Shown one piece after another: positions 598 to 53,030 of a stretch of 64,000 nt of DNA (the first letter of the stretch is position 1; the number at the start of each line of letters is the position of its first letter). Location of the stretch: the NCBI GenBank assembly GCA_020137815.1, contig CM035357.1:372001-436000 (forward strand), given 5' to 3'. This DNA comes from Hormiphora californensis. Its lineage: Eukaryota > Animalia > Ctenophora. The position numbers were made by a program, and so were the translations under genes. Under the pieces are notes generated by a model. It searched no databases. It was not told the origin of the DNA and saw only the letters and a program-made list of their open reading frames with translations.

Positions 598-13597
<13,000 letters not shown>

Positions 13598-14720: not shown

Positions 14721-16600
14721 ACTAGGCCATATAATACTGCTGCATGTCCTTCTCTCTCTCTGTATTTATTAGTTTTTTCATTTTTCAATTATTGTAAAAA
14801 GTACAGCAGCATCGCAGCTTGCTCAGGCCATTCCGCGTAACACGTGGTATATGTTAACATATTACATTCCGCATAACACGTGGTATGTGTTAACATATTA
14901 CAGATTGTGCTATTCAGATATATCATATATATTTTTGACCTTTTTGAAAACTTGCTCTTTCTCTATATGCGACCATTGATATGGTACGGCAGATCACTTA
15001 CTATACAGCTCAACGGGGGGAACTCAGAAATGAGTTCCTCGTGCCAGCTGAGCTCTTCGAGCTCAGTCCCGTTGCCGTGGACCTGTTGGCTGATGGTCCA
15101 GTGATTACGGTCAAATCACACCGGCTCTCTCCCCAAGTACGGGGAGTAAAATTTTGCCAGAGACCTAGCCGGACTCAATTTATGGCGCCGAGCTCTTGCA
15201 GTGATACTATCCCAGTTGAACTGACAATCTCACTTGTAAATAGGGTCTATCCCTAGGTTGGGTAAACGAGACCTATTAAGTTAGATCTCGGTTACCAAGC
15301 CTACTTAATCGCGGTCGCTGTTGACCATTATGAATTCAGCACATAATCTACTTAACACTAACCATAAACCCCCCTACAGGCCCTACAACTCAACCAACAA
15401 GAAGTAGCGCGCAAAGAACAATGCCCCAGAGCCCAAAGAAAGTGCACTCTTGCAGCATTCCGAGCGCGCGGCCATAACATTGTTATCTCTAAAATGACAT
15501 CATATAACACACACTCTCCATACTTAGCAATGTCTGGGAGAGGCAAACACCAGGCCAAGAGAGGAAAGAAGAGGAGTCGTTCCCCCAGTTCCTCACTATC
15601 CTCCATCGAACAGGCTAGGAAGAGATGCAAGATGCTGGAAATGTAAGTCCCTCTTTCTTCTGCTCCTAAAAACTATACCGCACAACCTCAACAACTACGA
15701 GTGAAGTCTTTCTAACACGCCCCCGCCTCAGGAAAGCGGCCCAACTCGAAGGCGGTGTACTTTACCACCGGGAGTTCCTGCAGATCCAGGACAAGGATTA
15801 CGCTGCATATGAACTCGCCCTGCTACCCCTCTGTGCGGAGCTAGGCATTACACTTCACCGCTCTAAATCTGGCAGAGCGATATTTGTCAAAGGCAAGGAG
15901 AATCTGGTACCTGAAAGGGTCCCGAGAGAATTAATCTATATCCCCAGGTAAGACAGCACCCCCTCCCCTCTCTTAAACTTATCACAAATTGAAACCACAC
16001 ATGAACTAACCACATTGCCCCCCAACAGGCTCGAATCGCATAGTGATTACCTCCGAATAACTCTGCCCTCACACACTCCCGTGAGCCTTCTACAAACCCA
16101 GGAAACCATCCAAATAGTGATCAACGGGCTAACCAAGAACAAGGTAAAGTCAGATGACCCAAAAGCCGTGTGCAAGCCGCTGTTACCTCCAAAAATGAAC
16201 AAGGTATGTACCCAACTGTATATTGAACTGCCCCCCAAGGCAACGGTCACAGGCCTGGACCCCTCAGATTGGGCATTCCATGTATTTAAACCTTACTCAG
16301 TTGAGCATATAAAAAAGAAAAAGGCAACGACGGAATTGATGGACGTCTAGCATGTTTACGCACTAGCACAGATGTATTTTCTTGAATAAGTATTGCTGTA
16401 TTGTGTTATTTTGTCGGGATTTAAAAATGCTGATTGTTAAAGATTCTTTCCCCTTTTTAACTTCCTAAAACAAAGAAAGCATGGGCTGTTTCTTATCTCC
16501 TTCTTCTTTTTCCTGCATTACCACAGCACGAAAAACAAACCCCCCCTGTTTTATCCAGGTCTTACCCAACTACAACTCTAACACCAACTAACTCCTAGCT

Positions 16601-18397
16601 ATGTCCCCCCCATCAGGAAGACGACGAAAACGCTACAAATCCCATCCTACACCAGTCAGTAACCCCGTTACACATGACACCACCGCTACATATAGCACCC
16701 CCGCCAGTAACTCCGTTACACATGGCACTCCCGCCAGTAACCCAGTTACACATGGCACCCCCACCAGTAACCCAGTTACACATGGTACCCCTGCGAACAT
16801 ATGCACCCCCGCCAGTAACCCAGTTACACATGGCACCCTCACCAGTAACCCAGTTACACATGGTACCCCTGCAAAATCATGCAACCCAGCAAGTTACACT
16901 GGTACACACAGCTCCCCTGCTAACAGTAACACCTCCGCTAGAAAACACAACACCTACAACAACTCTATAGGTTCCGCTGCTCCCCTACCCAACATAAATA
17001 ACACAGTCCCACCACACGTTAAACCAAACAAACGTAAAAAAATTAACCACGACAATTTCTTCACAGAGATAATCCAGCACAATCTGCACACCGAGATAGG
17101 AGCAACAAAAGACATCATGGGAAAGCTGGCAAACAACAAATTCTTAGCTCTCCAAGAACCATACACAGGTAATAACGATAGAGTAAAATTTGTACCAAGA
17201 AATGCCCGTTGCTTCGCCAAAGATCATGTAAAGCCAAAAGCGTGTATAATTGCCCCAAATAACATGGCCAAAAACGCACACCTACTAGCTACCCTAACTA
17301 ATGAAGAAATAGTCAGCATCAGATACAAATTTGACAGCAACAAAACCATAGTAATCACCTCAGCATACCTTGCTGCCCCAAAAGGACAGCAACAAATTAA
17401 CCCTGACACTGAATCCAAACTCCTCCAGACAAGCAAATATGTACGGGAGAAAAACATCGCCTGGATAATCTGCACCGACTCTAACGCCCGCAACCAAGCC
17501 TGGGGAGACCGAATCACGAACGACAGAGGTATCACCCTAGAGAGTATCCTTGAGGAAGAACAGCTTCTGATAGAAAACACATCTAATGAACCCACCTTCG
17601 TAAGTAAAAACGGTAAATCCCTAATTGACCTGACCATTACGAACGACAAAGCGCATTCTAGAATCCAAAAATGGTCCCTTGTCGACCCACCCCTTTCCGA
17701 CCATAAAAGGATTCACATTAAGATTAATCTAGGTAACCTAGAAGTAGAGAAGGTCAAACTACCAAAAAATACAGACATGACCCGCTATAGGGAACTGGTA
17801 ACCAAGAAATTCCATAAGATAGCAATTTCTGTAAACCCTGACCAGCACTCGATGAACAAAGAGTATAGGGATATCTGTGACGCACTAACCTCCTCCTTTG
17901 AAGAGGCCACTCCAACCACAGTCATAAACCACCTTAAATCCTCCCCATGGTCTCCACTAGCCACTGCCATTAAGCAGGAACTAAAACCTCTAAAAAAAGC
18001 TACAAACAAAACGGACGAAACCCGTGCTGAAATCAGTAGATTGAAAAAAGCCCTAGGGGATGAAATTAAAGGCTGCGAAGATAAACTTTGGAAAGAAAAA
18101 ATCTCAAAACTAAAGACCATCAAAGCGGTTGCCCAACAAATGAAAAAACAGTCAAAACCACAGGTAAAAATTTCAAAAATTGACACTGACCCCCACACAT
18201 CCTCAGATGATCCAGCAACAATCCTAAAGACGATTGCGGACACACATTTTCCCACAAACCCTGAAGAAACCAGAAATCCCTGGAAACAAAAGAATAAAAT
18301 CGACACACCAGTCGAAGACCAACTAAAGTTAAAACATCTCAACAAAGCTATCAAGCAGGTAAAAAGGGCCATTTGCACACCCAATCAGCTACCCTAA
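16601..18397 (+). pseudogene. Outer-element ORF2 5' part: 10-aa repeats (TPASNPVTHG), AP-like endonuclease, linker; RT missing
   Basis: Motifs QHNLH, LQEP, SAY, DSNA..WG..N.RG, PTF, IDLT, SDH. The sequence jumps from the pre-RT helix (LNKAIKQVK) to post-RT sequence (ILAGVEPL, another frame). Confidence 0.85.
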
Positions 18398-18743
18398 CTA
18401 TACTAGCAGGAGTGGAGCCACTGATCTTCCTTATAAACAAAGAAAGGGTAAACAATTACATCCACCTCACCATTAACAACAACTGGTGGTCCGACCCAAA
18501 CCACGGCACACGGGCTAAACTCACCCATTCGAAAGACATAGAAAACTACCTACGTCGCCTAAACCCAGAAGCTGGATTAGATATGTCCCCCACCCAATCA
18601 ATAACCTTCTCCCAAAACGAAAATATCCAAACAGACGGAACCATCGAAATCTACACATTGCTCTCTACACATTTTGTCACGGCTCTTGCACAGTACTCGT
18701 TGTAATCTACTTCCTACTTGCGAGACGCCCCAACAAGCTTAAC

Positions 18744-19032
18744 TCTACCGACAAGAGCATTCCACACTGTGGGTTCTTTACAAACTGGTAAATTACTACA
18801 TCCCTATTTACCAATTGAATTGAATTCATAACACCACCCCATTTCCTGTGTGACGGGGTGACATCCTCCATCCCGAAACGGAACGATATCTACCAACAAG
18901 AGCATTCCACACTGTGGGTTCTTTACAAACTGGTAAATTACTACATCCCTATTTACCAATTGAATTGAATTCATAACACCACCCCATTTCCTGTGTGACG
19001 GTGACATCCCCCATCCTGAACCGGATCGATAT
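18744..19032 (+). repeat. 145-bp tandem duplication in inner-element 5' UTR
   Basis: Near-identical units start at 18744 and 18889. Confidence 0.92.
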
Positions 19033-19362
19033 CCTATCCTTCCCTTACTCTCTCTACTCGGTACTGGTGACGGTACGCGGGCCCCTGAACTCTCAGGTAA
19101 GCAGCTACTACCCCACCGTTACCATACCATTTTCTGACAACCCTTCCCTTCCCCCACCGAGATCTGTCTGTTCAACTGTGCTGGTAGGATTAGGAAAGAG
19201 CCTACACCAGAGTCTTTGGTCAGCATCAGCAAGGTTTGAATTTCAAGAAATCACTTGTCAAGCCACCTGCCCTGAACAGTCCAGCTGCTATTTACATCCC
19301 TTCCTTCCGTCTATCCTTCCTACCCTTTCTGTGAACCAGGAAAAAAGTTAGGGAGCCCCGCA

Positions 19363-19450
19363 AAAAATTTCCACGGTCGGGACTCGATCCACCCTCCCTC
19401 CTGTCCCTCCGCGCGGTAACCAAAGCGTCATACCACTCGGCCACGGAGGC
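19363..19450 (-). ncRNA. tRNA-derived Pol III-type unit, antisense within the inner-element 5' UTR
   Basis: Minus strand has A box TGGCCGAGTGG, B box GGATCGAGTCC and a T6 run immediately downstream; cloverleaf is degenerate. Confidence 0.6.
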
Positions 19451-19481
19451 GACGAGAAATCAGCAATCAAGCCAAGTATAT

Positions 19482-22400
19482 ATGCAATCTCTGTGGAGTT
19501 TCAACCTAGGTTGGGGTGGAACTGCACCCACTACACCCGTTGCACCCGTCGATAGCAATGCAGACAAAGTCGAAGAAACCATTGAAGGCACCGGACAAGA
19601 GACTTTTAGCACCCCCGCCAGGATCATGAGGAAGCTTCCAAGTAGCATTAGACGGTCGTCTCCATATCTGCAACCTGCAGTTATAAGAGACAAGCTAAAG
19701 TTAGGAAGAAGACGTCGGACTATGTCAGCCCCATCCTCCCCCTCACATCGCCTTGCCCCAGCAGAATATCTTACGCTCGGGGCAGTAGGAGGCATCCGAT
19801 GTCTCAAAATGGAATCGGATGGAGTTTTGAAGATAGCGAATACTGCACATGGTCCTATTCTTCACAGATCCAGCACAGTAATTGGAGATGATTTTTCTTC
19901 AGATCGTGCAGAACTAGCTAAACAACTAGCGCAGGACATGCCCAGTGATGCTGCAGATGATCAATGTAACTTTAAAATACGGATCGGTAATTCTGGCACT
20001 GCCCAACTTTACTCTGATCTCGTCAAAACATTACAAAATCATCTGAAATCCTCTCTTCCAGCTGCAGCTCCCAGAAATCTGTCAATACTAGACACTCTAA
20101 TGGTGTCCTACACACGCGACAGCTGGATACCTGTCAGGTTTGATGGCACATCCACCAAGCCACTCGTGATACTCAACATTGGGTCAGAACAAATAATCCA
20201 CATGAGGAGCAAACACAACACCCTGGTGATAGATGTGCCCATGCCCCCTTTATCTGTGCTCTGTGTGGATCCCACCAAAGAATGGTCCAGTATCAACGTG
20301 GTTAAAGGACCTGATGAGACCTCTCCTGATCACCACTTCTGGGTGTTACTCACAGAATCTGTCCAACAAGAGGAGAAACAAGAAATAGCATCCCCCGATC
20401 TCAATACTACCAACCTGAAGATCGAACCTAGTATCTCCGATAGATCTCCCTCACCACTACCAACTGCATTATCCCCAGCTACCACTGAGTATCCTCTCAC
20501 AGTCAAAACTCCAGATAGTATTGGAAGCAATTCCAAAGCTGATAAATCTATTGACTGTATTAAATCCCCCACACCGAGCAGCTTCAATTCTGAAAGTCCC
20601 GGATTTGATAGTGACCGTTTCGTCAACTGGGAGATGACTGTTAACATGGTGAACTCCGCCAGAGTTAGTATCCTGAACAAGTTGATGGACGCAGCCAAGC
20701 TCCCACGTACACCAGGAATGGATCCATACTGCTCCAGACAAAACCTGCTCAACAAATTTCAGAAAATATATGAGGGTCAGGAATTCCCAACCCCTGAATT
20801 GTGCAGCACCATGCTAGACCAACTTACCAGTAAGGCCATAGAGAACGAAATTGTCCGTCTTGAGATAAACTTGGGAAGTTCATCATCTCTAAAGGACAAG
20901 AAAAAGGCGCTAGTTGATAGATGGTGCACCCGACAGAGCGCTAGTGACATCAGATCTGACAGCCACGTATCCACCACAAAATCTGATAAAAAACGTGAGA
21001 AAAAGAGGAAGAAAAAGTTGATGAAGCAACTATCAAAATCAAGTCAACTCTCAAATGAGGAAAAGCCTGCTCCGACTTCCGAGTCAGTGGAACCCGAAGC
21101 ACCTGTGACTTGTGCTGCTAGTAAATCAAGTGAGCCCAAGACCCAAATTCCCTCTAAACCAATCACCACCAGTTATCCCCCAGATGATATCTCCAACAAC
21201 CGGCCAATCAAAGTTCTAGAAGAGAGCCTGCTCCATTTGAAAGCTGAAGTAGCCAGTAACCGTCACATCGTGGATCTGCTGATTGACGAGGAGGGCAACA
21301 AGCCGAAGAAGTCCAAAAAGCTATCAACATCCAACGCCACTGAACCCGATCGAGTTAACGAACTTCTGAAGAAAATAGACCACCTCACCTCCATCAATCA
21401 GACCTTAGTTACGAAAGTGGACAAGCTCGCGGATTCAAACACCACTTTGGCAGATGCGGTTGGTCGAATTACAGAACAGAATGAGCTCCTCAAATGTGAA
21501 CTCAATGAGCTCAAGTGCGCCCACAGTACACTATTGGAAGCTCACAACTCTGCAATACTCCGCATACAGAATCTAGAAACCCGATCCTCCAACATGAATG
21601 CTGATATACTCCGACTGACAGAAAGTACGGAGGTGACACAAATGAATATTGCTGAAACCCCTGTCAGGCAGCCTACCCCTGTGGCGGTGGAACCTGAAGA
21701 ACAATCACACGTCCCAGACCAATTAAGGGACCTAGATACAGAAGTTGATGTCGACCAGAGCAACGTAAACGATGTCAACGGACTCTCTGACTCATATGCA
21801 TCAGCTATATCTAGCAGCAATGGAGCTCCTGTTGAACAGCCGACCGGCACGGGTGTAGCTCAAGTCGTGGACCGGACAACAAGACCCCCGGCAACTGACC
21901 CACGCTCTGCAAGCGGAGATGAAGGGCACCTCACCGCAAGAAGACGGATTCGGACAGCAAGATCTTCAGGACCACCCGCTGCGAGAGAATCATATCGGCA
22001 CCACTTTGTTCTTGTAATACACGATGGTCTGTTCGACGGTTTCAACAAAGCAGCCTTCCCCCGATACCTGAGGCTGAAACTGGTGAAAATCAGAAGCCTG
22101 AAAAATCTAGCAACCACAGAAATGGATGCCTTCATACGCTCAGTTGAGAGATGGAAACCAGCATGCGTGTACATCCATACAGGCTGGAATGACGCTAGAG
22201 AAGCTACACTGCCACTCGAGATCGCCGACCACTGCAGAAAAATATCCGATGCTGTTCTATCTGTATCCACAGCAACACCCAATCTTTGCTTTTCTACACC
22301 TTTCCATGTTGGTACTGATAACAGTCCCCTGGCTGACAGAGTGGAAGACACGTCCAAAGCAATTTTCCAATTCGTGTCCCAATTTAGAAGTCATTCTCAG

Positions 22401-22580
22401 AGGGTATATTCATATACCAACGACGATCTCTGGAACTTCACGACGACCTACTCCGGCGAAGCAGGACCTGTGCTACCATCATGTGAGAGGGGAACAAAAA
22501 TGATGTGGGCCTCCCTGAGGAACGGTATAATCAAAACACTTCGCTTGCCCAATCCGAGAAACAACAGATCAGATGATTAA
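19482..22580 (+). CDS. Retrotransposon ORF1p: degenerate AlkB/2OG-Fe(II)-like region, coiled coil, SGNH esterase-like C-terminal domain
   Basis: 1032-aa intact ORF; heptad-rich segment ~21350-21630; VLVIHDG...VYIHTGWND corresponds to SGNH blocks I and III; overlaps ORF2 start (ATGATTAA). Confidence 0.85.
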   Translation: MQSLWSFNLGWGGTAPTTPVAPVDSNADKVEETIEGTGQETFSTPARIMRKLPSSIRRSSPYLQPAVIRDKLKLGRRRRTMSAPSSPSHRLAPAEYLTLGAVGGIRCLKMESDGVLKIANTAHGPILHRSSTVIGDDFSSDRAELAKQLAQDMPSDAADDQCNFKIRIGNSGTAQLYSDLVKTLQNHLKSSLPAAAPRNLSILDTLMVSYTRDSWIPVRFDGTSTKPLVILNIGSEQIIHMRSKHNTLVIDVPMPPLSVLCVDPTKEWSSINVVKGPDETSPDHHFWVLLTESVQQEEKQEIASPDLNTTNLKIEPSISDRSPSPLPTALSPATTEYPLTVKTPDSIGSNSKADKSIDCIKSPTPSSFNSESPGFDSDRFVNWEMTVNMVNSARVSILNKLMDAAKLPRTPGMDPYCSRQNLLNKFQKIYEGQEFPTPELCSTMLDQLTSKAIENEIVRLEINLGSSSSLKDKKKALVDRWCTRQSASDIRSDSHVSTTKSDKKREKKRKKKLMKQLSKSSQLSNEEKPAPTSESVEPEAPVTCAASKSSEPKTQIPSKPITTSYPPDDISNNRPIKVLEESLLHLKAEVASNRHIVDLLIDEEGNKPKKSKKLSTSNATEPDRVNELLKKIDHLTSINQTLVTKVDKLADSNTTLADAVGRITEQNELLKCELNELKCAHSTLLEAHNSAILRIQNLETRSSNMNADILRLTESTEVTQMNIAETPVRQPTPVAVEPEEQSHVPDQLRDLDTEVDVDQSNVNDVNGLSDSYASAISSSNGAPVEQPTGTGVAQVVDRTTRPPATDPRSASGDEGHLTARRRIRTARSSGPPAARESYRHHFVLVIHDGLFDGFNKAAFPRYLRLKLVKIRSLKNLATTEMDAFIRSVERWKPACVYIHTGWNDAREATLPLEIADHCRKISDAVLSVSTATPNLCFSTPFHVGTDNSPLADRVEDTSKAIFQFVSQFRSHSQRVYSYTNDDLWNFTTTYSGEAGPVLPSCERGTKMMWASLRNGIIKTLRLPNPRNNRSDD

Positions 22581-25500
22581 CATTAACAGTAAACCTCCGG
22601 GACTCAACTTTGTCTCGTGGAACATCCATGATGCCCGTTCAAGGATTGAAGGGAATAAAGTCGAGTTACCAGACTTCAGTTTAGTTACCTCGGCAGCTCA
22701 CTTCATCTGCCTGCAGGAAACTAAACGCCCAGTCACGATGGCGGGTTTCCGATGTTATAATTCCAACAGATCCAAATCAAGGTCTGGAGGAGTATGCATA
22801 GCGGTAAAAAACGAGATATCACATCTGGTGTCGCCCATCAATTGCGACCACCCTGATGTCGCGGCCATCCAGATTAATAAAGGTGTGCTCGGTGAGATGA
22901 CCATTCTTATTAGTGCTTATGACTCTCCTGATATGAGCTCCTATAAAAAGTCTGGCAAGTGCGTTGATGACGCGGTAACTGACACTATCACTGATATTAT
23001 CTCTGAACATAATGAATCGGTATCCACCATTATTATGGGAGATTTCAATGCCAGAACAGGAAACCAAATTGGGAATGCCCATCAAAGTATGCAGTCCAAC
23101 TTCTACAATGGCGTCGGCAACAGCAACCTCCTAGCCGGCATCAACTGTCCCCAACTGGCTATGCTACCTGAGCGTTCCTGTAAGGACTCGATAACTAACG
23201 CGAAGGGAAAAGCTTTTCTGGATTTTGTGAGAACTAACGGTCTTGTCATCAGCAACGGCAGAGTCTTAGGCGATATATTTGGTGAGGTGACATGCATCCG
23301 TCCTAATGGGGCGAGCTTGGTTGACTATTGCTGCACCGATCTCGACACCTATGAGAGGACTAGCTCTTTTCATGTGGGCCCTGTCTCCCCAATATCTGAC
23401 CACAGGCCAATTCACCTTTCCGTCAAGAAACAATCTATATCTACCTGCTACCAAACCCTGATAAGCCCCCAACAAGCACCGCGTGGCTTTGCCTGGAACA
23501 CGAAGGACAACAAATCGAGTATTGACTTCCTACAATACCAAACTCAAAAGGAATTTGAAGAAGAACTAAAGCCCCTCCTCCTGTCACCACCCGAAAACCA
23601 GAATGATGTTCATGAACTAAACAACAGTGTTGTTGAAATATTCAGAAAACTAGCCTCTAGCACCTTGAAGATGAAGGGGAAGAAAAAGAACAAATTCCAA
23701 TGGTACGACAGAGAATGTGAGAAATCAAAAGAAGCTCTTGAGAAATGCTGCAAAAAGATATCTTCGAAATGTCAAGATAAAAAGATGAGCGAAGAATTTC
23801 ACTGCCAAAAGCGAACCTATCGCAAGCTTACCAGGAGAAAGAAAAACAGTTACAAGTGGAAACTGAACTCCAGAATATCTAACATGAACTCCCGCCAATT
23901 AAACTGGTCCGGAGTGAAGAAGCTCAAACATGAAACATCTGACGAGATTGACTTTGATGTCCTGGACCTACACAACTTCTACCTATTCTTCAAAAAGTTG
24001 TATTCCAGCAAGTGTGACAAACCGATCTCCGATCATCCTGATCCCTCTGATCCTGAGTTTTACAACACGAGCACTAACCAGCAAGCAGTATTTCTTCTAT
24101 GCCAACCAATCTCCAAAGCAGAGCTGTCCGATGCCATATCGCGACTAAAAACGAACAAAAGCCCCTCGATAGATCTGATTACTAACGAGATGCTTCGCTC
24201 CACATCTAATGTTACTAAAGACGTCCTTCTCACGCTTTTCAACGGTTGTCTCACTCACGGGTGCTACCCATGGAACACTTCTATCACTACTGTGATCCAC
24301 AAAAAAGGGGCGACAGACAACCCGGACAACTTTAGGGCGATCACCTTGGGTAGTTGCATAGGCAAGCTCTATAGTAATATCCTACTGACCCGTATGGCAG
24401 ACTTCAGAAAGTCCGTGTGCCCTGACACCGCCAACCAGCAAGGATTCGCTAAGGGTGCCCAGACCAGTGATCATGTCCTAACCCTTAAAACCATTCTGGA
24501 CAAGTATCTACACATAAAGAAGCGAAGGGTCATCGCCTGCTTTATTGACTATCGTAAAGCATTCGATACGGTATGCAGATCGGCTCTCCTGAAAAAGCTG
24601 GGCTCAATGGGCATATGTGGCAGCTTCTTCAACTGCATTTCCAACATGTACGAAAACTCATCCACTGCGATCAAACTCTCGGGAATGCTATCCGAATCGT
24701 TCTTTGTACGTATCGGTACGGAACAGGGGCACCCATTAAGCCCCGAGTTCTTTAAGATGTTCGTTGATGAGATGTCAAAGATGCTTAACAATACTAATGG
24801 ATCCTTCCCTATGCTAGGCGGAGTCAACATCACCCACCTATTATGGGCCGACGATATCGTGTTATTGGCATTAGACAGAGTTACCATGCTGAATCTCATT
24901 AGTGTAGTCGGTGAATATGCGACCAAATGGGAGCTCGAAGTAAACACTAGCAAAACCAAGATCCTAGTGTTCAACTCATCGGGGAGGATCCTAAAGGAAG
25001 CTAAAGGCTACTATCTACTCGGAAAAGAATTGGAAGCGGTGAAAGAATACACTTACCTGGGAATAACTTTCGTGGCCTCTGGTTCGTTGAAAACCGCCAT
25101 GAAAAACCTATCACTGAAAGCCACAAGAGCTATTTCAATACTGAGGAGGACTGTTGACGTTAATGCCCTATCAGCCTGGACAGTTTTCAAGCTGTATGAT
25201 GCTCTCATTGAGCCCATTCTGACCTACGGCTCACCGGTATGGCTTCCATCACTGGAGGTGGCCAAAGCTCTGGACCAGTCAACTAGCTGTGATACTTTTT
25301 TCAAGCGTCTAACCTCTGATACATCTGAGAAAGTGCACCTGAGATTCATTAAGTGGGCGCTTGGTGTCCATAAAAAAGCCACTAATACTGCTTGCTACGG
25401 AGACTCGGGCAGAGCTCCTACATTTATATCTGCGATCAACCGTGGTCTTTCTTACTTTGACCGAGTAATGTCAAAAGAAGCAGATGGTTCAATCCTAGGC

Positions 25501-26052
25501 CTTGCCGGGGAAGAACAGAGGTCTCTGAATCTAAATTGGTACTCCTTCTGGGAAAACATCCGCAACAATTTCACTAGAAATGACCTCGAGAGATTCATGA
25601 TTAACCACTGGGATCACTTGAGGCGGAACCAGTCTAAACTGAGCTATTACAACTCTGTGAAGTCAACGTACGGCTACGAGGAATATCTTAACCTGAGACG
25701 TGTAAACAGATGTGAAATTAGCAAACTCCGGCTAAGTGCACACGACCTAAGGGTGGAGACTTCCAGATACTCAAACCACCAAACACCAAACTACTGTCGC
25801 TTCTGTTGTGATGGACAAGCAAAACAGCTGCTCGATCAATTGCCACTTGCGGAACCACTCATCGAAAATGAACAGCATGTCCTAAATGAGTGCCCCACAT
25901 ACGAAGAAATGCGGCAAACTCTCCCAGACCACCTGCTCTCGGCCATCGCAAGCGGGGAAGCAGCAAACATTTACACCGAAAGGAATGGAAATGCCCTGAA
26001 CAGGTTCCTCAAAGCGTCACATACATTACGAGTCAATTATATGGAACCATGA
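22573..26052 (+). CDS. Retrotransposon ORF2p: APE endonuclease, reverse transcriptase, C-terminal Zn knuckle
   Basis: SWNI, LQET, GDFNAR, VDY, SDH (EN); KSPSID, NFRAITL, QQGF, FIDYRKAFDTV, GTEQGHPLSP, WADD, YTYLG (RT). Confidence 0.97.
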   Translation: MININSKPPGLNFVSWNIHDARSRIEGNKVELPDFSLVTSAAHFICLQETKRPVTMAGFRCYNSNRSKSRSGGVCIAVKNEISHLVSPINCDHPDVAAIQINKGVLGEMTILISAYDSPDMSSYKKSGKCVDDAVTDTITDIISEHNESVSTIIMGDFNARTGNQIGNAHQSMQSNFYNGVGNSNLLAGINCPQLAMLPERSCKDSITNAKGKAFLDFVRTNGLVISNGRVLGDIFGEVTCIRPNGASLVDYCCTDLDTYERTSSFHVGPVSPISDHRPIHLSVKKQSISTCYQTLISPQQAPRGFAWNTKDNKSSIDFLQYQTQKEFEEELKPLLLSPPENQNDVHELNNSVVEIFRKLASSTLKMKGKKKNKFQWYDRECEKSKEALEKCCKKISSKCQDKKMSEEFHCQKRTYRKLTRRKKNSYKWKLNSRISNMNSRQLNWSGVKKLKHETSDEIDFDVLDLHNFYLFFKKLYSSKCDKPISDHPDPSDPEFYNTSTNQQAVFLLCQPISKAELSDAISRLKTNKSPSIDLITNEMLRSTSNVTKDVLLTLFNGCLTHGCYPWNTSITTVIHKKGATDNPDNFRAITLGSCIGKLYSNILLTRMADFRKSVCPDTANQQGFAKGAQTSDHVLTLKTILDKYLHIKKRRVIACFIDYRKAFDTVCRSALLKKLGSMGICGSFFNCISNMYENSSTAIKLSGMLSESFFVRIGTEQGHPLSPEFFKMFVDEMSKMLNNTNGSFPMLGGVNITHLLWADDIVLLALDRVTMLNLISVVGEYATKWELEVNTSKTKILVFNSSGRILKEAKGYYLLGKELEAVKEYTYLGITFVASGSLKTAMKNLSLKATRAISILRRTVDVNALSAWTVFKLYDALIEPILTYGSPVWLPSLEVAKALDQSTSCDTFFKRLTSDTSEKVHLRFIKWALGVHKKATNTACYGDSGRAPTFISAINRGLSYFDRVMSKEADGSILGLAGEEQRSLNLNWYSFWENIRNNFTRNDLERFMINHWDHLRRNQSKLSYYNSVKSTYGYEEYLNLRRVNRCEISKLRLSAHDLRVETSRYSNHQTPNYCRFCCDGQAKQLLDQLPLAEPLIENEQHVLNECPTYEEMRQTLPDHLLSAIASGEAANIYTERNGNALNRFLKASHTLRVNYMEP

Positions 26053-26331
26053 ACACTTTTATATTTGCAGTAATCATATGTCAACTATTCCTGGTTAGGG
26101 CGTGTGTGGGTCTCGATGCTCCCAGCGTCTGCCTGAGTAGAGACCAGTGGTGCTGCCGTGTGTGTGCCTCGTCGCAAATCAATCGGTTTCGCGGAGGGAC
26201 AGGCAGGCGGGAGCATTGCTGATCTGGCAGTCGCTGGGCCCATCTGTGTTTTTTCCCCCTACTGTGCAGGATGGCACAGCCATGATGTTTTGGCTCTTTT
26301 CCTGTTGGTTTTATTCTATTCTATTCTATTC

Positions 26332-27171
26332 TACACAGACGGCTCAAAGATGGAAAGCAGTGATGGCCAAGTCACTGGTGCAGGAGCCATCATTATCTAC
26401 GAACATGAGTATAAAGTAATAATCCAACCTCTTGCACCCATAAATACAATCAACCAAGCTGAACTCCAGGCCATCTGCATGGTAGCCAACAACCTACTGA
26501 GAGGTGAAACAATGAACAAAAACATAATTATCTACACCGACTCCAAGACCACTCTAACGAGATTAACAAGAGGCTACTCAAACTCTATCCAATTAACAAC
26601 TACGATAAAAAGCCTTCTGAACCTACAGACACTCAACAACGTCAACATTCAAAAGGTCAAGGCGCACTCCAACATCCCAGGTAACGAAGCCGCAGACCAA
26701 ATTGCCAAGAGAGCTACAAGAGACAGCACCTCCACCGCAAACCCATTCGACCTAACAAAAACGCAACTTATGACATTAGTCAGAGACGACTGCACTAAGA
26801 AGTTCATAAAGCAAATCGAAAAGGCCAACTACTCCAAATGGACAACTACACTACTTTACAAACTCATCAGAGATTGTAAGAACCTGAAATTTACCAATAA
26901 ACAATATCTAAAAAGCTTAACACTCGCAACATCAGGACAAAACAACCTAAATAGCGCCATCTCACACAAAGACAAGTCCGAATCTGCCCTCTGCGAATTG
27001 TGCAATGTCAAAGAGAACGCGGAGCACAAACTACTACACTGCCCGGACCTAGATGAACTAAGATACAAACTGGACTACCAGGACATTGCCGAAAATGTTC
27101 TCACCCCCGACCAAAAACTCGACCTAGGGAAACTCTCCAAACTTACAGCCAAATGCAATCTATTTAACTGA
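26332..27171 (+). pseudogene. Outer-element RNase H and CCHC C-terminus
   Basis: YTDGS, QAELQAI, YTDS, KVKAHSNIPGNEAADQIAK, CELC..ENAEH.LLHC. Joins in frame to IEIYT at 18643-18657 when the nested element is removed. Confidence 0.92.
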
Positions 27172-33114: not shown

Positions 33115-34096
33115 AGTGGCCTGAACCTGAGGTTCAGGCACGACTGTTTCCCCATAGTACCAAGTACCAACATACTTCACAGTAGCGGTACACAGTTGTG
33201 GTTGTGGCTGAATGGAAGCTATGATGATAGTGTCGTAGTGCAATTATACCCCAGAGATCTCATTATAATAGTAATCTCTGATCCTTATAACTAGCTATAG
33301 CTGAATATACTATATCATTGCATCATGCTATCACGAAGTCACGAAGTCACGATCAAGTCACGAAATCACGGCTCACAGTCATTATCCCATATTTCACATA
33401 TTCCACATGGCTGCTGCTGCAGTACACATGATGACATGGTGTTGTGGTTGAATGGAATATGATAATATTATCATATGGTGCAATTATACCAGCTAAAGGA
33501 ATGTATATTGGAATTTTGAAAAGTTTCAGAAAGAAGATATTCCAGTCTCCCGATATATATAATTATCTCATGGTGTACATGACGACTTTTTTTCTGCATA
33601 TTCAGTAGGTATTCACATCTTATCCACTAAAAGATGATCTTGCTCTATCTACTATGACTATCCAGTTGGAGAGCGTGTATATAGTTGTAACAAAGAGAAC
33701 AACTTGCTTTTTCTCTTTCTTATACCCACTATATCATGATACGCACTGTCTGGCGCCGCGACCCCAGAATCAAATGGGGTATGGCGCCGCCATACAGGAT
33801 ACACAGTAAGAACACAGTATACACTGTATACTAAACAGTCCACAGGTGTCAGATCTCATTGTTCACCGTCTTCACGGATAACTGATCCCTTGTTTTGAGT
33901 GTAACAAGTGTAACTGATCCCTTGTTTTGAGCAAGAAAAGTACTGATGCAAACATTAAGCTGAGATTTTTTCTCTTTCTTATACCCACTATACATCATGA
34001 TACGCACTGTCTGGCGCCACCACCCCAGAATCAAATGGGGTATGGCGCCGCCATACAGGATACGCAGTGAGAAAACATTATACACTGTATACTATA

Positions 34097-34542
34097 AGGA
34101 ACCATAATAAAGTTCAAGAGCCTCCAAGAGCGCACCCCATCCAAGAGAGACCAAAATCAAGAGCGCACCACAATCAAGAGAGACCAAAATCAAGAGCACA
34201 CCACAAGCAAGAGAGACCAAAATCAAGAGCACACCACAATCAAGAGAGACCAAATCAAGAGCGCACCACAATCAAGAGAGGCCAAATTCAAGAGCGCACC
34301 AAAATCAAGAGAGACCAAAATCAAGAGCACACCACAATCAAGAGAGACCAAATCAAGAGCGCACCACAATCAAGAGAGGCCAAATTCAAGAGCGCACCAC
34401 ATCTGGTATCTTCTGGATAAGGAGCTCTCTTGATTTTGGTGCGCTCTTGATTTGGTCTCTCTTGATTGTGGTGTGCTCTTGATTTTGGTCTCTCTTGATT
34501 GTGGTGCGCTCTTGGAGGCTCTTGAACTTTATTATGGTTCCT
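34097..34542. mobile_element. MITE with TATA TSD and internal ~30-bp subrepeats (Kolobok/Sola-like, unresolved)
   Basis: TIR aggaaccataataaagttcaagagcctccaagagcgcacc; TATA at 34093-34096 and 34543-34546; empty paralogous site at 33821-33848. Confidence 0.85.
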
Positions 34543-34561
34543 TATACAGTCCACAGGTGTT

Positions 34562-36140: not shown

Positions 36141-37783
36141 GGCAATTTTGCATTTGCGGGCATCGCACTATAGACGCAGTACCCACGTACTATAGACGCA
36201 TTATAAACGCATTATAAACGCATTATAGACGCATTATAGACACACGCAATATAGACGCAATTTCGTAAGCAGCACTATAGACGCAATATAGACGCATTAT
36301 AACAGCAATATAAACGCATTTTTATAGACGCGACGCAGTATAGCCGCATTATAGGCGCACTACCCACCCCAAAATCACCTTATAGACGCACTATAGACGC
36401 ATTATAGACTGACTATAGCAGCACCATAAACGCTACATAGACCCATATAGACGCATGATAGACGCATTATAGACGCAAATCGCTTTTTATAGACGCCGCG
36501 TCTATAAAAAACGTGCTTTTTTAAGAAGCACTATAGACGTACTCAGACGCACGCTGCCATATTTGAGGCGCAGTTGGGCGAACTATAAACGCATTTTTGT
36601 CGCATATGAAAGGAAGCAGTATAGACGCATTATAGACGCATTATAGACGCATGTGCGCGAAATCGATAAAGACGCAATATAGGGAGAGGGAAAGAGGGAG
36701 GGATACAGAGACAGATCAGACAGAGACAGATGGACACAGATCTGAGACAGACGGACAGAGTAAGAGGGAGGGAGGGAGGGAGGGAGGGAGGGAGGGAGGG
36801 AGGGAGGGAGGGAGGGAGGGAGAGGAGGGAGGGAGGGAGAGGGAAGGAGAGGGAGGGACTGAGGGAGGGGTACAGGGACAGAAACAGACGGATAAAGACC
36901 TGAGACAGAAGGACAGAGTAAGATGGAGAGAGATTAAGATGGAGAGTGGAGAGAGAGAGAGTGAGACAGAGAGGGAGATAGTAAGCGCGTGTTTGTCCGT
37001 CCGTCTGTCTCTGTCCGTTTGTTTCCATCTCTGTCTTTTTCTGTCTCACTCTTTTTATGTCTCACTCCGTCCCTATATCACTATCTTTCCATCTTACTCT
37101 CTTTCCATCTTAATCTGTCCTTCTGTCTCAGGTCTTTATCCGTCTGTTTCTGTCCCTGTACCCCTCCCTCAGTCCCTCCCTCTCCTTCCCTCTCCCTCCC
37201 TCCCTAGTCGCCTCTCTCTCCCTCTCCTTTTTATTTTGCGTCTATATTGCGTCTTTATCGATTTCGCACACATGCGGCTATAATGCGTCTATAATGCGTC
37301 TATACTGCTTCCTTTTATATGCGACAAAAATGCGTTTATAAAACGCCCAACTGCGCCTCAAATATCGCACTGTAGCCTGGAGTACGTCTAAAGTGCTTCT
37401 TTAAAAAGCACGTTTTTTATAGACGCGGCGTCTATAAAAAGCGATTTGCGTCTATAATGCGTCTATCATGCGTCTATATGGGTCTATGTAGCGTTTATGG
37501 TGCTGCTATAGTCAGTCTATAATGCGTCTATAGTGCGTCTATAAGGTGATTTTGGGGTGGGTAGTGCGCTTATAATGCGGCTATACTGCGTCGCGTCTAT
37601 AAAAATGCGTTTATATTGCTGTTATAATGCGTCTATATTGCGTCTATAGTGCTGCTTACGAAATTGCGTCTATATTGCGTGTGTCTATAATGCGTCTATA
37701 ATGCGTTTATAATGCGTTTATAATGCGTCTATAGTACGTGGGTACTGCGTCTATAGTGCGATGCCCGCAAATGCAAAATTGCC
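36141..37783. mobile_element. Foldback/Mutator-like element, 1.64-kb quasi-palindrome
   Basis: ~540-bp near-perfect TIRs built from tatagacgca subrepeats; GG termini; 9-bp TSD gattaatca at 36132-36140 and 37784-37792. Confidence 0.93.
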
Positions 37784-42971: not shown

Positions 42972-45900
42972 ATGGAAAGTTCAGCTGGTAACCACTCTTG
43001 GCTAACAAGGAACCTCAATTACACCTCCCTCAATGATGTACTATACTGGCCCCCACTTGAACAGGTTCTTGGTGCCTCTTACTACACCTTCATAATGCTT
43101 CTAGGGTGTTTTGGTGAGTTGTTAATTAATTGATTATTTGTTTTGGTGAGTTGTTAATAGATTAACTGATTATTGTGTATTAATTAACCCTTTTTGATGT
43201 CATGATTTGAACAATTGTTTTGCAGTCACAACTACAGTTAAACTTGTAAACTGTTTGGAATAAATTCAGTTGTAGAATTAACGAATAGTGTCTGACGGTG
43301 TATAAGGTCCAAATGAGGCACGGAGCTTTTCTGAATCAGGTTTTCAAGACGAATCCAACGCAACCGGAATTAGCTTTCTATCTTATCGGGAAGGTTCGGT
43401 TCACACACACTCATTTTTGGTCATTTTTGCGGCGCGAGCCAATCAGAGGCCAGAATTTCGAAATCCAGCCCTCTGATTGGCTCGCGCGGCTAAAAATGAA
43501 AAAAGTGAACCACACCTTCCCGATAAGATAGAAAGCTAATTCCGGTTGCGTTGGATTCGTCTTGAAAAGCTGATTCAGAAAAACTCCGTGCCTCATTTGG
43601 ACCTTATACACCGTCAGACACTATTAACGAAATACTGTAGTTACCAATCTATCCTATTAGACTATGCAGCTGCAGTAGTTTCCATGCTCTCTCTCAGCTG
43701 CAAATTTCTCAACTTTTTGATGACGTCAGAAGATTAAACCCCCCTTTAAAACAAAGTTCTAGTTCTAAGACTTCTTGAGAACTATACTGAAGGTTATCTG
43801 CCATATCCCCGATAAAATATTATAAAGCATATTAGAACCCCTATAGCAATTTGCCTTGTCAAGACAGATAGGTTAGGTTGTATGCCAAGCCACACCCAAG
43901 CTTTAATAACTATGTTTTAAGGCCCTAAAATATAGTTATTAAAGCTCTTGGGTGTGGCTTGGCAGTATACTCTACAACCAACCTACCTGAGAGAACTCTA
44001 ATCTACCAGACCTGACATTTGACAGTTAAGAAAGTCCGTTAAGGTCAAATCACCCCACTCATCCCATCCCCCGCTAAACTGCCTAACTAAACGGCCAGCC
44101 ATATAAAATATTAAAATGGCTTAAAGCCAATATTGCACTGATTGATTATGAAGAGGTTAAACTGTAAAACTAGCAAATCCTCGAAAACTCCTTTGGTAAT
44201 TCTGATTAAGCCAAAGCATACAGGTGGCATACAGGTGCAGCAGTCTGAGCTAGTAAACCACACCCGCCGTGCTCAAACTCTAATTTAACTTTTAATTTAA
44301 CCATTTCATTTCTGTATATAACTCATTTAATCTCAGAACGATAAAAATTTAACCATGTCTCCCAATGCAACCATGGCCTGGTAACCATGGTAATCTTGGT
44401 AACCATGGTAACCATGTATCACAATGTAACCATGTCTCTCCCTCAGGAAACGTGTTTATCATAGTGGCGACCCACAAAGTGAAAGCGATCTTCAGCGGAT
44501 CTCAGGACACTACTAATCATCAAGTACCTTGCAATAATCGACCTCCTGTCCTCCATCCTTCTCTATCCCAACTTCATCTACCTAGTCTCGGTGGGACATT
44601 ACAACCTCCCACCCTCTTACTGCATCCTACTTGGGATCTGGGAGATATACTTTCCCACCACATCTACCTTCCTAGTGCTGGTACTGGTAGCCTTCAAAGT
44701 GGATATGTTGCGGAATCCGTTCAGCTCACTAAATCACAACAGAGTTAAAACTCATATAATCTGTGTGATAACCTGTCTGTCTGGGGTCATTATCCCATCT
44801 GCACCCGTATACGGACTTGCTACGATGATATACGATCCAAAACGCCAGACATGCACCTTCGATTTCTATCCAGACTGGTATGAGGAACCTGCAAAATGTG
44901 TGTTTGTGTCCAGTGCAGTGTTTTTCTGTTGCGTGGCTCCCCTTGCAGCTATCACGGCTCTCAGTGTAGCGATTGTAGTGAAGGTCAAGGAGAGGACCAA
45001 GAAAATGGCACTGCAGAACGGGAAGGATGGGACTACACCGAACAAGGTAAAATTACTGCTTGGTAACCACATGGTAACCATGGTAACTAGTAACCATAGT
45101 TACACAGTTGATTCCTTGCAATGGCTGTCTTCAAATTTTTACTTTCGTCCAATTTTCTGTCGTAGAGTTAAAAATATTTTAACGACTTAACTTAAGCTGC
45201 TAGACGAATTAAGTGACCCTTCCCTAAAAACACAAAATTGATTCTAACCCCTCTTCCAATTCAGTCCGCCACAAAATCTATAAAAGTGGTTCTAACCCCC
45301 CTCTCCCTTTTTCAGTCCGCCACAAAATCTATAAAAGTGGTTCTAACCCCCCTCTCCCTTTTTCAGTCCGCCACAAAATCTATAAAAGTGGTTCTAACCC
45401 CCCCCCCCTCCCCCATAAAAAAAGTCGCTTGGCAAATTCCCTCGTCGCTCGGCAATTGGTTCGGCAACAACAGGTGGTTTGCCGAGCCAGTCGCTCGGCT
45501 AATCAAGGAAGTCGCCGTGTTTTCACCGCGTTCTTACAGAAAAAGTACATTTTTTCAGCACTTTTTTTCAAAATCTCCTGCTGAAAAATACAAAGTGCTG
45601 AAAAAATGTGCTTTTTCTGTAAGAACGCGGTGAAATCACGGAGACTTCCTTGATTAGCCGAGCGACTGGCTCGGCAAACCACCTGTTGTTGCCGAACCAA
45701 TTGCCGAGCGACGAGGGAATTTGCCAAGCGACTTTTTTATGGGGGCTCTCCCTCCCAGTCCGCTACAAAATCTATAAAAGTGGTGCTGATGGTAGTCCTG
45801 GCGTATGCAATAACGTGGGCACCATTCTTCTTTGCATTCACATGCATGCCTTTATCATGAGGACTGAAATCCCCGTTCCAAGGTAAATAATACAGTCGGA

Positions 45901-50040: not shown

Positions 50041-53027
50041 TTTTTTTTTTTTTTTTTTTTTGGGGCATTAAGCTAAGGCGTACCAAGTCTCATACCACCC
50101 GGGTATAGACGGCATAGCCTGGAACCCTCCGTACGAACTCCCTTGTAATTCAAGGGAGAGCAGTGCACATTGGAGGGCCCTACGCTTGTCATTGTGTCTG
50201 TCTTGGTCTGTCTTTGTAGGGTTAGAACACTGCCTACTTTTCCCCACGATAATTGCAGTGTTGGCAGACGGCCGCACTCTTTGCGTTACCGGCACAACTC
50301 GCTCTGCTCGTTGGTACTAGGTATTAGGTGGCTAACCAAAGAGTAGAATTGAAGGTATAAACAACATCATAAATGAGTGAATGAAGGTATCGTTTTGCCT
50401 TTGAGAGTTTCTTGAGTTTAGTTTGGTCTGGAACAAGGTATCGTTTTGCCTTTGAGAGTGACATGTGGTTGGTTTGGTCTGGAACAAGGTATCTTTTTGC
50501 CTTTGAGAGTGTCTTGAGTTTAGTTTGGTCTGGAACTAGGTAACGTTTTGCCTTTGAGAATGTCTTGAGTTTGGGTCTGGAATCCCGATGTTTACCGTGT
50601 TTTGAATAGTCAATTACATTCATAATATAAACTTTACACAATCTGTGAACAGACAATACGGACAGGTGAACTTACAGAATTTTGATGAATGATTGGTACC
50701 GTGATGTTGTTGATGATGAGATGAGAGGTGTATGCATTTCCAGTGGAGATGAAGATAAACAAAAACGATTAAACACAGATAAGGGGTAGGACTGAATGTA
50801 GCACCAATGGACTGTAAAATGTTCTAGAATACTATGTGGATGGGACAGATAAGAACATTTGTTAGTTGTTACACGCGATAAGCGACTTAGTGCACCAAAA
50901 CACAAGGATTGTCTCTGTAGTGTGGTGTTTAGCAATGTCCGCTATATTGGGAGAGGTGGGTGGGGGAGGGCGGGTGGGGGTGGGGCGGTGGGTAATATTG
51001 ACCAAGAATGTAGCTGTAATTTAGTGATGAGACTAGGCCAGGCCCGAGAGACAGTTCAGTGGTAACTGGGAGGTCATGTGTGATGGAAATCAGAACTAGA
51101 GACATATTTGAGTTGTATTTTACTGAGGAAAACAGCCCTTTTTGGTGTATGAGACAAGCAAAAGTGAAACGAAATGCAACGTAACGAACGAGTAATGAAT
51201 AGAATTCTGCTCTGTGACTTGTTAGTGCTCCTTTATAAAACACGCAATGGCAAAGTACAAAGTTTCCCAAATTTAATTTAATGCGAAATTCCAAAGTTTT
51301 GGTCGATTTTGGTCTATTTTGCTGCCCTAAACTAACTATTGGACTGTGTGTTGCCGGAAAGACTGCTCTCTGGGGACTGAGAGATCATATTGTTCTCGAA
51401 TATTGGTATTTGAGGCGGATTTAAGTCACATTTTAGTGAGGGGAAGAGCTAATATTGACCAAGAATGTAGCTGTAATTTAGTGATGAGACTAGGCCAGGC
51501 CCGAGAGACAGTTCAGTGGTAACTGGGAGGTCATGTGTGATGGAAATGAGAACTAGAGCCATATTTGAGTTGTATTTTAATGAGGAAAACAGCCCTTTTT
51601 GGTGTATGAGACAAGCAAAAGTGAAACGAAATGCAACGTAACGAACGAGTAATGAATAGAATTCTGCTCTGTGACTTGTTAGTGCTCCTTTATAAAACAC
51701 GCAATGGCAAAGTACAAAGTTTCCCAAATTTAATTTAATGCGAAATTCCAAAGTTTTGGTCGATTTTGGTCTATTTTGCTGCCCTAAACTAACTATTGGA
51801 CTGTGTGTTGCCGGAGAGACTGCTCTCTGGGGACTGAGAGATCATATTGTTCTCGAATATTGGTATTTGAGGCGGATTTAAGTCACATTTTAGTGAGGGG
51901 AAGAGCTAATATTGGCCAAGAATGTAGCTGTAATTTAGTGATGAGACTAGGCCAGGCCCGAGAGACAGTTCAGTGGTAACTGGGAGGTCATGTGTGATGG
52001 AAATGAGAACTAGAGACATATTTGAGTTGTATTTTAATGAGGAAAACAGCCCTTTTTGGTGTATGAGACAAGCAAAAGTGAAACGAAATGCAACGTAACA
52101 AACGAGTAATGAATAGAATTCTGCTCTGTGACTTGTTAGTGCTCCTTTATAAAACACGCAATGGCAAAGTACAAAGTTTCCCAAATTTAATTTAATGCGA
52201 AATTCCAAAGTTTTGGTCGATTTTGGTCTATTTTGCTGCCCTAAACTAACTATTGGACTGTGTGTTGCCGGAGAGACTGCTCTCTGGGGACTGAGAGATC
52301 ATATTGTTCTCGAATATTGGTATTTGAGGCGGATTTAAGTCACATTTTAGTGAGGGGAAGAGCTAATATTGGCCAAGAATGTAGCTGTAATTTAGTGATG
52401 AGACTAGGCCAGGCCCGAGAGACAGTTCAGTGGTAACTGGGAGGTCATGTGTGATGGAAATGAGAACTAGAGACATATTTGAGTTGTATTTTAATGAGGA
52501 AAACAGCCCTTTTTGGTGTATGAGACAAGCAAAAGTGAAACGAAATGCAACGTAACGAACGAGTAATGAATAGAATTCTGCTCTGTGACTTGTTAGTGCT
52601 CCTTTATAAAACACGCAATGGCAAAGTACAAAGTTTCCCAAATTTAATTTAATGCGAAATTCCAAAGTTTTGGTCGATTTTGGTCTATTTTGCTGCCCTA
52701 AACTAACTATTGGACTGTGTGTTGCCGGAGAGACTGCTCTCTGGGGACTGAGAGATCATATTGTTCTCGAATATTGGTATTTGAGGCGGATTTAAGTCAC
52801 ATTTTAGTGAGGGGAAGAGCTAATATTGACCAAGAATGTAGCTGTAATTTAGTGATGAGACTAGGCCAGGCCCGAGAGACAGTTCAGTGGTAACTGGGAG
52901 GTCATGTGTGATGGAAATGAGAACTAGAGACATATTTGAGTTGTATTTTAATGAGGAAAACAGCCCTTTTTGGTGTATGAGACAAGCAAAAGTGAAACGA
53001 AATGCAACGTAACGAACGAGTAATGAA
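50041..53027 (-). mobile_element. Poly(A)-tailed non-coding retroposed insertion with ~174-bp flanking duplication
   Basis: T21 at 50041-50061; identical flanks 49869-50042 and 53028-53201; 5' end truncated mid-repeat. Confidence 0.8.
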
Positions 53028-53030
53028 TAG
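50993..53030. repeat. 457-bp tandem repeat, ~4.5 near-identical copies
   Basis: Units start at 50993, 51450, 51907, 52364 and 52821. Confidence 0.97.

What the first reader, a model, noticed from the sequence alone, without database searches (positions are those of the whole stretch)
19400..26203. 5' UTR and 3' UTR of the inner element are complementary across 6.8 kb
Seen: cctgtccctccgcg (19400-19413) is the exact reverse complement of cgcggagggacagg (26190-26203), and gcgacgag (19449-19456) of ctcgtcgc (26168-26175), in the nested order needed to form two helices together. The 5' block can alternatively pair locally with cacggagg (19442-19449). The predicted antisense tRNA-like RNA carries the same 14-mer as the 3' UTR and could compete for the site. 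Inference: virus-like RNA cyclisation or a switch between translation and reverse transcription. I do not know of this being described for LINEs.
Basis: partly seen in the sequence, partly recalled or inferred. Interest (0 to 1): 0.78.

Follow-up and report, generated by a model that had tools for sequence, protein, structure and literature searches.

The report
Comb-jelly LINE ends match, likely unpaired
A 14-letter stretch near the start of this jumping gene, likely of a comb jelly, is the exact mirror complement of one near its end, but each stretch sits inside its own local structure (a backwards tRNA-like promoter unit and a predicted 130-letter hairpin), so the match is more likely a by-product than a clasp that closes the RNA into a loop.

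Summary
Both matches are exact. A match of 14 nt or more between these UTRs arises in about 1 of 1000 shuffles; the 8-mer alone is ordinary. The element is an intact two-ORF LINE (18658-26329), most like ctenophore elements, inserted into the RNase H start of another LINE.

The 5' block lies in an antisense tRNA-derived unit (A box, B box, T6) that a diverged sister family appears to retain. The 3' blocks are the two arms of a predicted 130-nt local rod (z -5.45).

Against a clasp: with the rod present, long-range pairing is predicted at 2% or less, and the 5' block binds no better than other windows. A diverged family carries 3 changes in the 14-mer and 2 in the 8-mer; 3 of these 5 break the long-range pairs unless its 5' end co-varies. 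That decisive test could not be run.

Verdict: by-product (old inverted relic or chance) about 0.62; working clasp or switch about 0.3. The scan noted 5'-3' pairing in LINEs of other genomes (unchecked notes), not in this family.

The parts
18658..26329 (+). Inner two-ORF LINE, full length or nearly so
   Evidence: Target-site duplication TCTACACA at 18650-18657 and 26330-26337; the outer reading frame runs into and out of it; contigs skip it at 18566-26409 in two runs
18744..19033 (+). Tandem duplication of about 145 nt in the 5' UTR
   Evidence: 95% identical copies
19057..19128 (+). Predicted 5' UTR hairpin block, shared with a diverged sister family; contains a splice-donor-like site at 19095
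   Evidence: z -3.0; loose ends at 19057 and 19128 and joint 19128-19379; donor motif
19362..19450 (-). Antisense tRNA-derived, Pol III type-2-like unit: start 19450, A box 19443-19433, B box 19390-19380, T6 19367-19362
   Evidence: A+B box pattern in 8 of 20000 Markov nulls; its first 16-mer is positions 3-18 of real tRNA genes in 3 of 21 database hits; transcription untested
19400..19413 (+). 5' 14-mer, between the two promoter boxes
19449..19456 (+). 5' 8-mer, spanning the start of the antisense unit
19626..22580 (+). ORF1: degenerate AlkB/2OG-like domain, probable coiled coil, SGNH-fold domain. Likely start at 19626; an upstream in-frame ATG lies at 19482
   Evidence: One of 4 relatives starts at the same place; SGNH fold E 4e-7; 2OG-oxygenase-like fold Z up to 5.9 on a weak model, Atlas score 0.92; coiled coil from sequence appearance and a weak Pfam hit
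22531..26052 (+). ORF2: AP-type endonuclease and reverse transcriptase, no stops
   Evidence: PF14529, PF03372, PF00078
26115..26244 (+). Predicted 130-nt rod-like hairpin in the 3' UTR; the 8-mer and the 14-mer lie on opposite arms
   Evidence: -75.4 kcal/mol, z -5.45, 0 of 200 shuffles; 13 of 20 variant places tolerated, P 0.035
26168..26175 (+). 3' 8-mer
26190..26203 (+). 3' 14-mer
26267..26304 (+). Predicted terminal stem-loop, likely the ORF2p recognition site
   Evidence: Fold; a diverged family gains one stem pair (loose end); function inferred from stringent LINEs (PMC3747384, passages)
26311..26329 (+). Tail of 5-nt tandem repeats
   Evidence: sequence
16592..27171 (+). Outer LINE (endonuclease 16592-18397, RNase H 26326-27171), interrupted at the start of RNase H
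   Evidence: PF14529 and PF00075; no RT hit in the three outer ORFs scanned

Best explanation
The two complementary stretches belong to an intact LINE, likely of a comb jelly, and each likely owes its persistence to its own local module, so the 14-nt match is likely a by-product rather than a working end-to-end clasp. At the 5' end an antisense tRNA-derived unit has kept its A box, B box and T run but lost the cloverleaf. It likely recruits TFIIIC/Pol III, giving an ~85-nt antisense RNA or acting as a DNA-level barrier for the element's promoter (inferred). At the 3' end the RNA is predicted to fold into a 130-nt rod followed by a terminal stem-loop and a repeat tail, the kind of signal that stringent LINE reverse transcriptases recognise (inferred). 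The rod would form as the RNA is made and hide both 3' blocks. The shared letters likely come from an old inverted copy between the two ends (about 0.35) or from chance (about 0.27).
For: Rod: z -5.45. 13 of 20 variant places in sister copies leave it intact, P 0.035. The commonest variant (26206, about 65% of depth in two runs) sits at a rod bulge but breaks the extension of the long-range helix drawn. In the most diverged family the three 14-mer changes each face a changed letter on the opposite rod arm: 4 near-axis Watson-Crick pairs of two changed letters, P 0.07. With the rod present the 14-bp helix has probability 0.022, 0.023 and 0.000 in three contexts and 0.001 in a fourth. The 5' block ranks 76-157 of 364 windows as a binder, and 402 of 600 shuffles bind as well. 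The 3' blocks are not more conserved than their flanks. 5' unit; a second contig family rejoins at 19379, the end of the B box, although only one family's depth covers the start of ORF1. Relic: similarity continues past the 14-mer on one side, P 0.017-0.033 in four scoring schemes.
Against: The exact match has P about 0.001 between the UTRs. With only the near parts of the 3' UTR the clasp forms at 0.99, and a 5-bp hairpin fills the gap between the two helices exactly. The clasp is within 5.3 kcal/mol of the local folds, and 7.2 below them if further end-to-end pairs are allowed. The rod's exact register is not well kept: 7 of 20 variant places break a predicted pair, and only 1 double change keeps a helix of 3 or more pairs in both versions (8805 of 20000 nulls reach 1). 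The invariant apical 24 nt (26171-26194) include the parts of both blocks that would form the junction. The relic signal is one-sided (inner flank P 0.78-1.0; both sides 0.07-0.21). No transcript or protein-binding data exist for either module.
Confidence: 0.62

Rival explanations
1. A working clasp and switch. The full-length RNA alternates between local folds and a 14-bp plus 8-bp end-to-end junction, likely helped by ORF1p, so that only complete RNAs are packaged or reverse-transcribed, or translation is switched off. The antisense Pol III RNA would open the clasp by pairing with the 5' block.
For: P about 0.001; nested helices around an exactly fitting hairpin; near-equal energies; both ends are retained across families whose coding DNA mostly fails to align at 80%; the 14-mer lies in the free spacer between the promoter boxes. 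Ty1 CYC5/CYC3 (PMC7969010, passages) and flavivirus ends (PMC12168079, abstract and section 24) show that such pairings compete with local hairpins.
Against: 3 of 5 changes of the most diverged family, and 1 of 2 changes of another, break pairs with this copy's 5' letters; the blocks are not preferentially conserved; low predicted occupancy; the one distant relative with both ends (L039, about 34% identical in ORF2) has no match above 8 nt.
Confidence: 0.3
2. Both blocks are copies of one free tRNA-derived SINE that inserted once in each UTR in opposite directions.
For: tRNA-derived head with intact boxes; weak similarity beyond the 14-mer; depth is about 7-10 times higher over the 3' UTR.
Against: No depth rise over the 5' unit; a T6 follows the head directly, with no body or tail; no second copy in the window; the 3' UTR lacks the A and B boxes; the raised 3' depth also fits 5'-truncated copies and overlapping contigs.
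Confidence: 0.06
3. An assembly artefact or a feature private to this copy.
For: No listed contig spans the whole element.
Against: Six runs from two studies hold 79-94% of the element's words; both blocks are covered by contigs of more than one run; the top-ranked differences near the 5' block lie at 19399, 19417 and 19418, outside it (398 lower-ranked rows not shown).
Confidence: 0.02

Closest known systems
Ty1 CYC5/CYC3 genome cyclization (PMC7969010, passages)
   Same: Complementary blocks near both ends of a retrotransposon RNA, with competing local pairings.
   Different: Ty1 is an LTR element that needs strand transfer and a tRNA primer, and its pairing has genetic support; a LINE primes at the target site, and here no pairing is shown.
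Orthoflavivirus CS/UAR/DAR cyclization (PMC12168079, abstract and section 24)
   Same: Multipart 5'-3' complementarity in competition with local hairpins.
   Different: The viral sequences are conserved and required; here the 3' blocks vary like their flanks and function is untested.
Esterase-bearing APE LINEs, RTEX and CR1 clades (PMC3905857, passages and section 12)
   Same: Two ORFs, SGNH-fold domain after a probable coiled coil in ORF1, APE and RT in ORF2, short tandem-repeat tail.
   Different: The paper reports conserved catalytic residues; here the GDS and DxxH motifs (recalled) are not evident in the alignment, and ORF1 has an extra 2OG/AlkB-like domain. RTEX placement is recalled from motif appearance, not tested on a tree.
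Stringent-type LINE 3' stem-loops (PMC3747384, passages)
   Same: Stem-loop just before a repeat tail.
   Different: An additional 130-nt rod lies upstream of it.
tRNA-derived SINE heads (PMC5786205, abstract and Discussion) and the BLV Pol III miRNA cluster (PMC12498455, abstract and section 10)
   Same: Type-2 internal promoter in a retroelement; the B box fits the published matrix and the A box fits 10 of 11 positions of its 15% consensus.
   Different: Here the unit is antisense inside an autonomous LINE's 5' UTR, is terminated at once, has no SINE tail, and is not shown to be transcribed.

Membership tests
APE-type LINE (non-LTR retrotransposon) | ORF2 with AP endonuclease and reverse transcriptase | tested here: met
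APE-type LINE (non-LTR retrotransposon) | Target-site duplication and repeat tail, no LTRs | tested here: met
   8-bp duplication and 5-nt tail; no long terminal direct repeat
RTEX clade | RT groups with RTEX references on a tree | not testable with these tools
   No clade-labelled reference sequences were returned
RTEX/CR1 esterase-bearing LINEs | SGNH domain in ORF1 | tested here: met
   Model pLDDT 84, Foldseek E 4e-7 to SGNH hydrolases
RTEX/CR1 esterase-bearing LINEs | Conserved catalytic triad | tested here: inconclusive
   Motifs read by eye only; no structural mapping
5'-3' cyclization elements (Ty1 CYC, flavivirus CS/UAR) | Complementary blocks at both ends beyond chance | tested here: met
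   P about 0.001
5'-3' cyclization elements (Ty1 CYC, flavivirus CS/UAR) | Blocks more conserved than flanks | tested here: not met
   3' side only: 5 of 22 against 9 of 59, P 0.51, one diverged family
5'-3' cyclization elements (Ty1 CYC, flavivirus CS/UAR) | Compensatory changes across both ends | tested here: inconclusive
   3' variants seen; the 5' letters of the same families were not among the 40 rows shown
5'-3' cyclization elements (Ty1 CYC, flavivirus CS/UAR) | Pairing required for replication | not testable with these tools
   needs a mutate-and-rescue assay
tRNA gene | Cloverleaf | tested here: not met
   ARAGORN 0 genes, Rfam no hit; acceptor and T stems broken by alignment
Pol III type-2 unit | A box, B box at suitable spacing, T-run terminator | tested here: met
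Pol III type-2 unit | Transcribed by Pol III | not testable with these tools
   no RNA holder listed
tRNA-derived SINE | Dispersed copies with body, tail and their own target-site duplication | tested here: inconclusive
   No depth rise, no tail, one copy in 64 kb; no whole genome was held

The most novel reading that the evidence does not exclude
A LINE that closes its RNA through a bistable 5'-3' clasp and encodes, on the opposite strand of its own 5' UTR, a Pol III RNA that opens the clasp: a self-encoded riboswitch-like control over translation versus reverse transcription.
Probability: 0.2. Interest if true: 0.8.

Novelty: new variant of a known kind. Interest (0 to 1): 0.42.

Why it matters
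If the clasp works, it would show that a LINE can check the completeness of its RNA as Ty1 and flaviviruses do, and it would give a direct test by compensatory mutants. Even without a clasp, an antisense Pol III unit retained in a LINE 5' UTR across diverged families would be an unusual control part. My full-text searches listed no paper whose title or abstract start describes either arrangement in a LINE. These are word searches of an open-access library, I read none of those listed papers for this point, and Repbase reports are not covered. On present evidence the complementarity itself is more likely a by-product.

Tried and rejected
No whole genome was held, so copies could not be collected. 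The single-protein scan of metagenome contigs found nothing. The alignment scan gave 80 loci, plus 1 viral and 2 genome loci. They are mostly 23-48% identical in ORF2, their 3' UTRs are unrelated, and nearly all lack the 5' UTR; only L039 had both ends and showed no match above 8 nt. The 13-nt match in L025 lies between a leader and a leader-like insert, not between UTRs. Rfam: no hit in the 5' UTR, two chance-level hits in the 3' UTR. No RNA holder listed. Run X11 (another organism) laid nothing on the 3' UTR, which can be false. ORF1 relatives did not reach into the 5' block. A 9-nt match (19459-19467 with 26215-26223) crosses the other helices and has negligible predicted pairing. The element does not start with the leader word found at the 5' end of L025: best match 18 of 28 in its 5' UTR. 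Foldseek gave no match for the ORF1 N-terminal model. I did not fold the diverged families' 3' UTRs: their differences were only partly listed (18 places assigned of 24 differences and 2 gaps), so all variant tests are at pair level. Assignment of variants to families rests on matching depth values. The B-box pattern was fitted after seeing the site; one search repeats the test with general consensus patterns (recalled). No full-length 7.7-kb fold was run.
Full report
Observation. Both complementarities are exact and nested. A match of 14 or more between the two UTRs appears in 5 of 5000 dinucleotide shuffles and in 6 to 13 of 10000 block or Markov nulls, so about 0.001. It is the longest inverted match in the element, but for the whole 7.7 kb it is not exceptional (110 of 300 shuffles, inflated by palindromes). 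The 8-mer adds little: ten other matches of 8 or 9 nt exist, counting it. In a scan of many LINEs, events at 0.001 will occur by chance.

The element. It spans 18658-26329, between an 8-bp target-site duplication, and interrupts an outer LINE at the first codons of its RNase H. Contigs from two runs skip it. ORF2 has endonuclease and reverse transcriptase domains. The named relatives are from Pleurobrachia bachei and Mnemiopsis leidyi, so the host is likely a ctenophore. ORF1 likely starts at 19626. It ends in an SGNH-fold domain and begins with a weakly supported 2OG/AlkB-like domain; three distant relatives have a clear one (3 of 13 proteins scanned, E 1e-16 to 1e-24). Esterase-bearing ORF1s occur in the CR1 and RTEX clades (PMC3905857, section 12). 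My RTEX placement is recalled and untested.

The 5' block. On the minus strand 19450-19362 reads as a tRNA-like start, an A box, a B box 53 nt later and a T6. The general A+B pattern occurs in 8 of 20000 nulls and only on that strand of the window. The B box fits a published matrix (PMC12498455, section 10). A 16-mer from its start matched 21 viral loci, of which 3 are tRNA genes matched at positions 3-18. The cloverleaf is lost. The 14-mer lies between the boxes. Depth does not rise over this unit, so it is not an abundant free SINE at 80% identity. A second contig family leaves the window's sequence at 19128 and rejoins at 19379, the edge of the B box, while the start of ORF1 carries one family's depth only. 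I infer that the unit is kept under selection; its letters in that family were not shown.

The 3' blocks. 26115-26244 folds into a rod of -75.4 kcal/mol, z -5.45, with the 8-mer and the 14-mer on opposite arms pairing with each other. A terminal stem-loop and the repeat tail follow. Co-folding gives the clasp at 0.99 when the 3' strand starts at 26150, but at 0.022, 0.023 and 0.000 with the whole UTR, and at 0.001 with the intact rod alone. The 5' block ranks 76-157 of 364 element windows as a partner, and 402 of 600 shuffles bind as well. Forcing only the two helices costs 5.3 kcal/mol against separate folds; allowing further end-to-end pairs gains 7.2. Energy therefore does not favour the clasp, but it does not exclude it, and no loop-closure cost for 6.8 kb is included.

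Variation. Laying four runs on 26090-26300 listed 22 variant places, 20 of them in the rod (the 2 outside were left out of the tests). A family at about 84% identity changes 3 letters of the 14-mer and 2 of the 8-mer. Three of the five break pairs with this copy's 5' letters and two leave G-U pairs. The rate equals that of the flanks (5 of 22 against 9 of 59). A second family changes the middle of the 14-mer. For the rod, 13 of 20 places are tolerated (P 0.035), and 4 pairs near its axis are formed by two changed letters (P 0.07). Against this, 7 places break the predicted register and only one double change keeps a helix of three or more pairs in both versions. The apical 24 nt have no listed change in that family, which fits either model. 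The commonest variant, at 26206, falls on a rod bulge but breaks the extension of the long-range helix, and no matching 5' row appears among the 40 shown. The 5' letters of the diverged families were not returned, so covariation across the ends is untested.

Origin of the match. Beyond the 14-mer the reverse complement of the 5' region resembles the 3' UTR on the outer side (P 0.017-0.033) but not on the inner side. This is weak support for an old inverted copy; it could also reflect purine-rich tracts or a longer panhandle.

Weighing. Shown: the match, the element's anatomy, the promoter-like motifs, the variant places. Predicted: the rod and the energies. Inferred: Pol III recruitment, RT recognition, relic origin. 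I put a by-product at 0.62 (relic 0.35, chance 0.27), a working clasp at 0.3, and a free SINE or artefact below 0.1. Unchecked notes of this scan report 5'-3' pairing in Rex1, lizard L1 and RTE elements of other genomes. They raised my prior for a clasp but are not evidence for this one; sequence look-ups found no note on this family.

Known systems. It would work like Ty1 CYC5/CYC3 (PMC7969010, passages) or flavivirus cyclization (PMC12168079, abstract and section 24), but the conservation criterion was not met on the 3' side. The 5' unit resembles SINE heads (PMC5786205, abstract and Discussion) and the BLV Pol III cluster (PMC12498455, abstract and section 10). Searches listed nothing that describes either arrangement in a LINE by title or abstract start; one search returned no paper, possibly because of how the terms were written. 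No supplements were read.

Noticed in passing
window 19095-19339: A near-consensus splice donor (19095) and the only strong pyrimidine-tract acceptor of the 5' UTR (19337-19339) frame a candidate 243-nt intron. The acceptor could also take a spliced leader; the next base begins the stretch that can pair with the 3' end.
   Followed up: partly
window 19626-20375; L025, L026, L039: ORF1 of this LINE group carries an AlkB/2OG-oxygenase domain, clear in three distant relatives and degenerate here. One search listed only an LTR-element precedent (PMC9289625, passages read, no LINE case seen).
   Followed up: partly
window 16592-18657 and 26330-27171: The outer LINE runs from endonuclease to RNase H with no RT hit, yet has appreciable depth and empty-site contigs in two runs: possibly an RT-less non-autonomous family.
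   Followed up: partly
window 19057-19128: Long hairpin (z -3.0) shared with a diverged family; no Rfam match; a candidate ribozyme or promoter element.
   Followed up: partly
L025 1-100 and about 6300-6360; L026 1-40: These relatives begin with a leader-like word; in L025 ORF2 is cut by a second copy of it followed by a donor-like GT and a complementary arm, like a spliced-leader RNA gene (identification recalled and prompted by scan notes).
   Followed up: partly
L004-L008, L019, L023 3' ends: Distant relatives share a short terminal stem-loop before a 9-11-nt tandem tail (read by eye).
   Followed up: no
window 26088-26096 and 19334-19342: Another 9-nt complementary pair between the UTRs, crossing the main helices; the start of its 3' part is retained in the diverged family's loose end.
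   Followed up: no
window 36141-37783, 45411-45745, 43284-43625, 34093-34546, 50993-53120: Several long inverted repeats (up to 542 nt, 97%) and a 457-nt tandem array.
   Followed up: no
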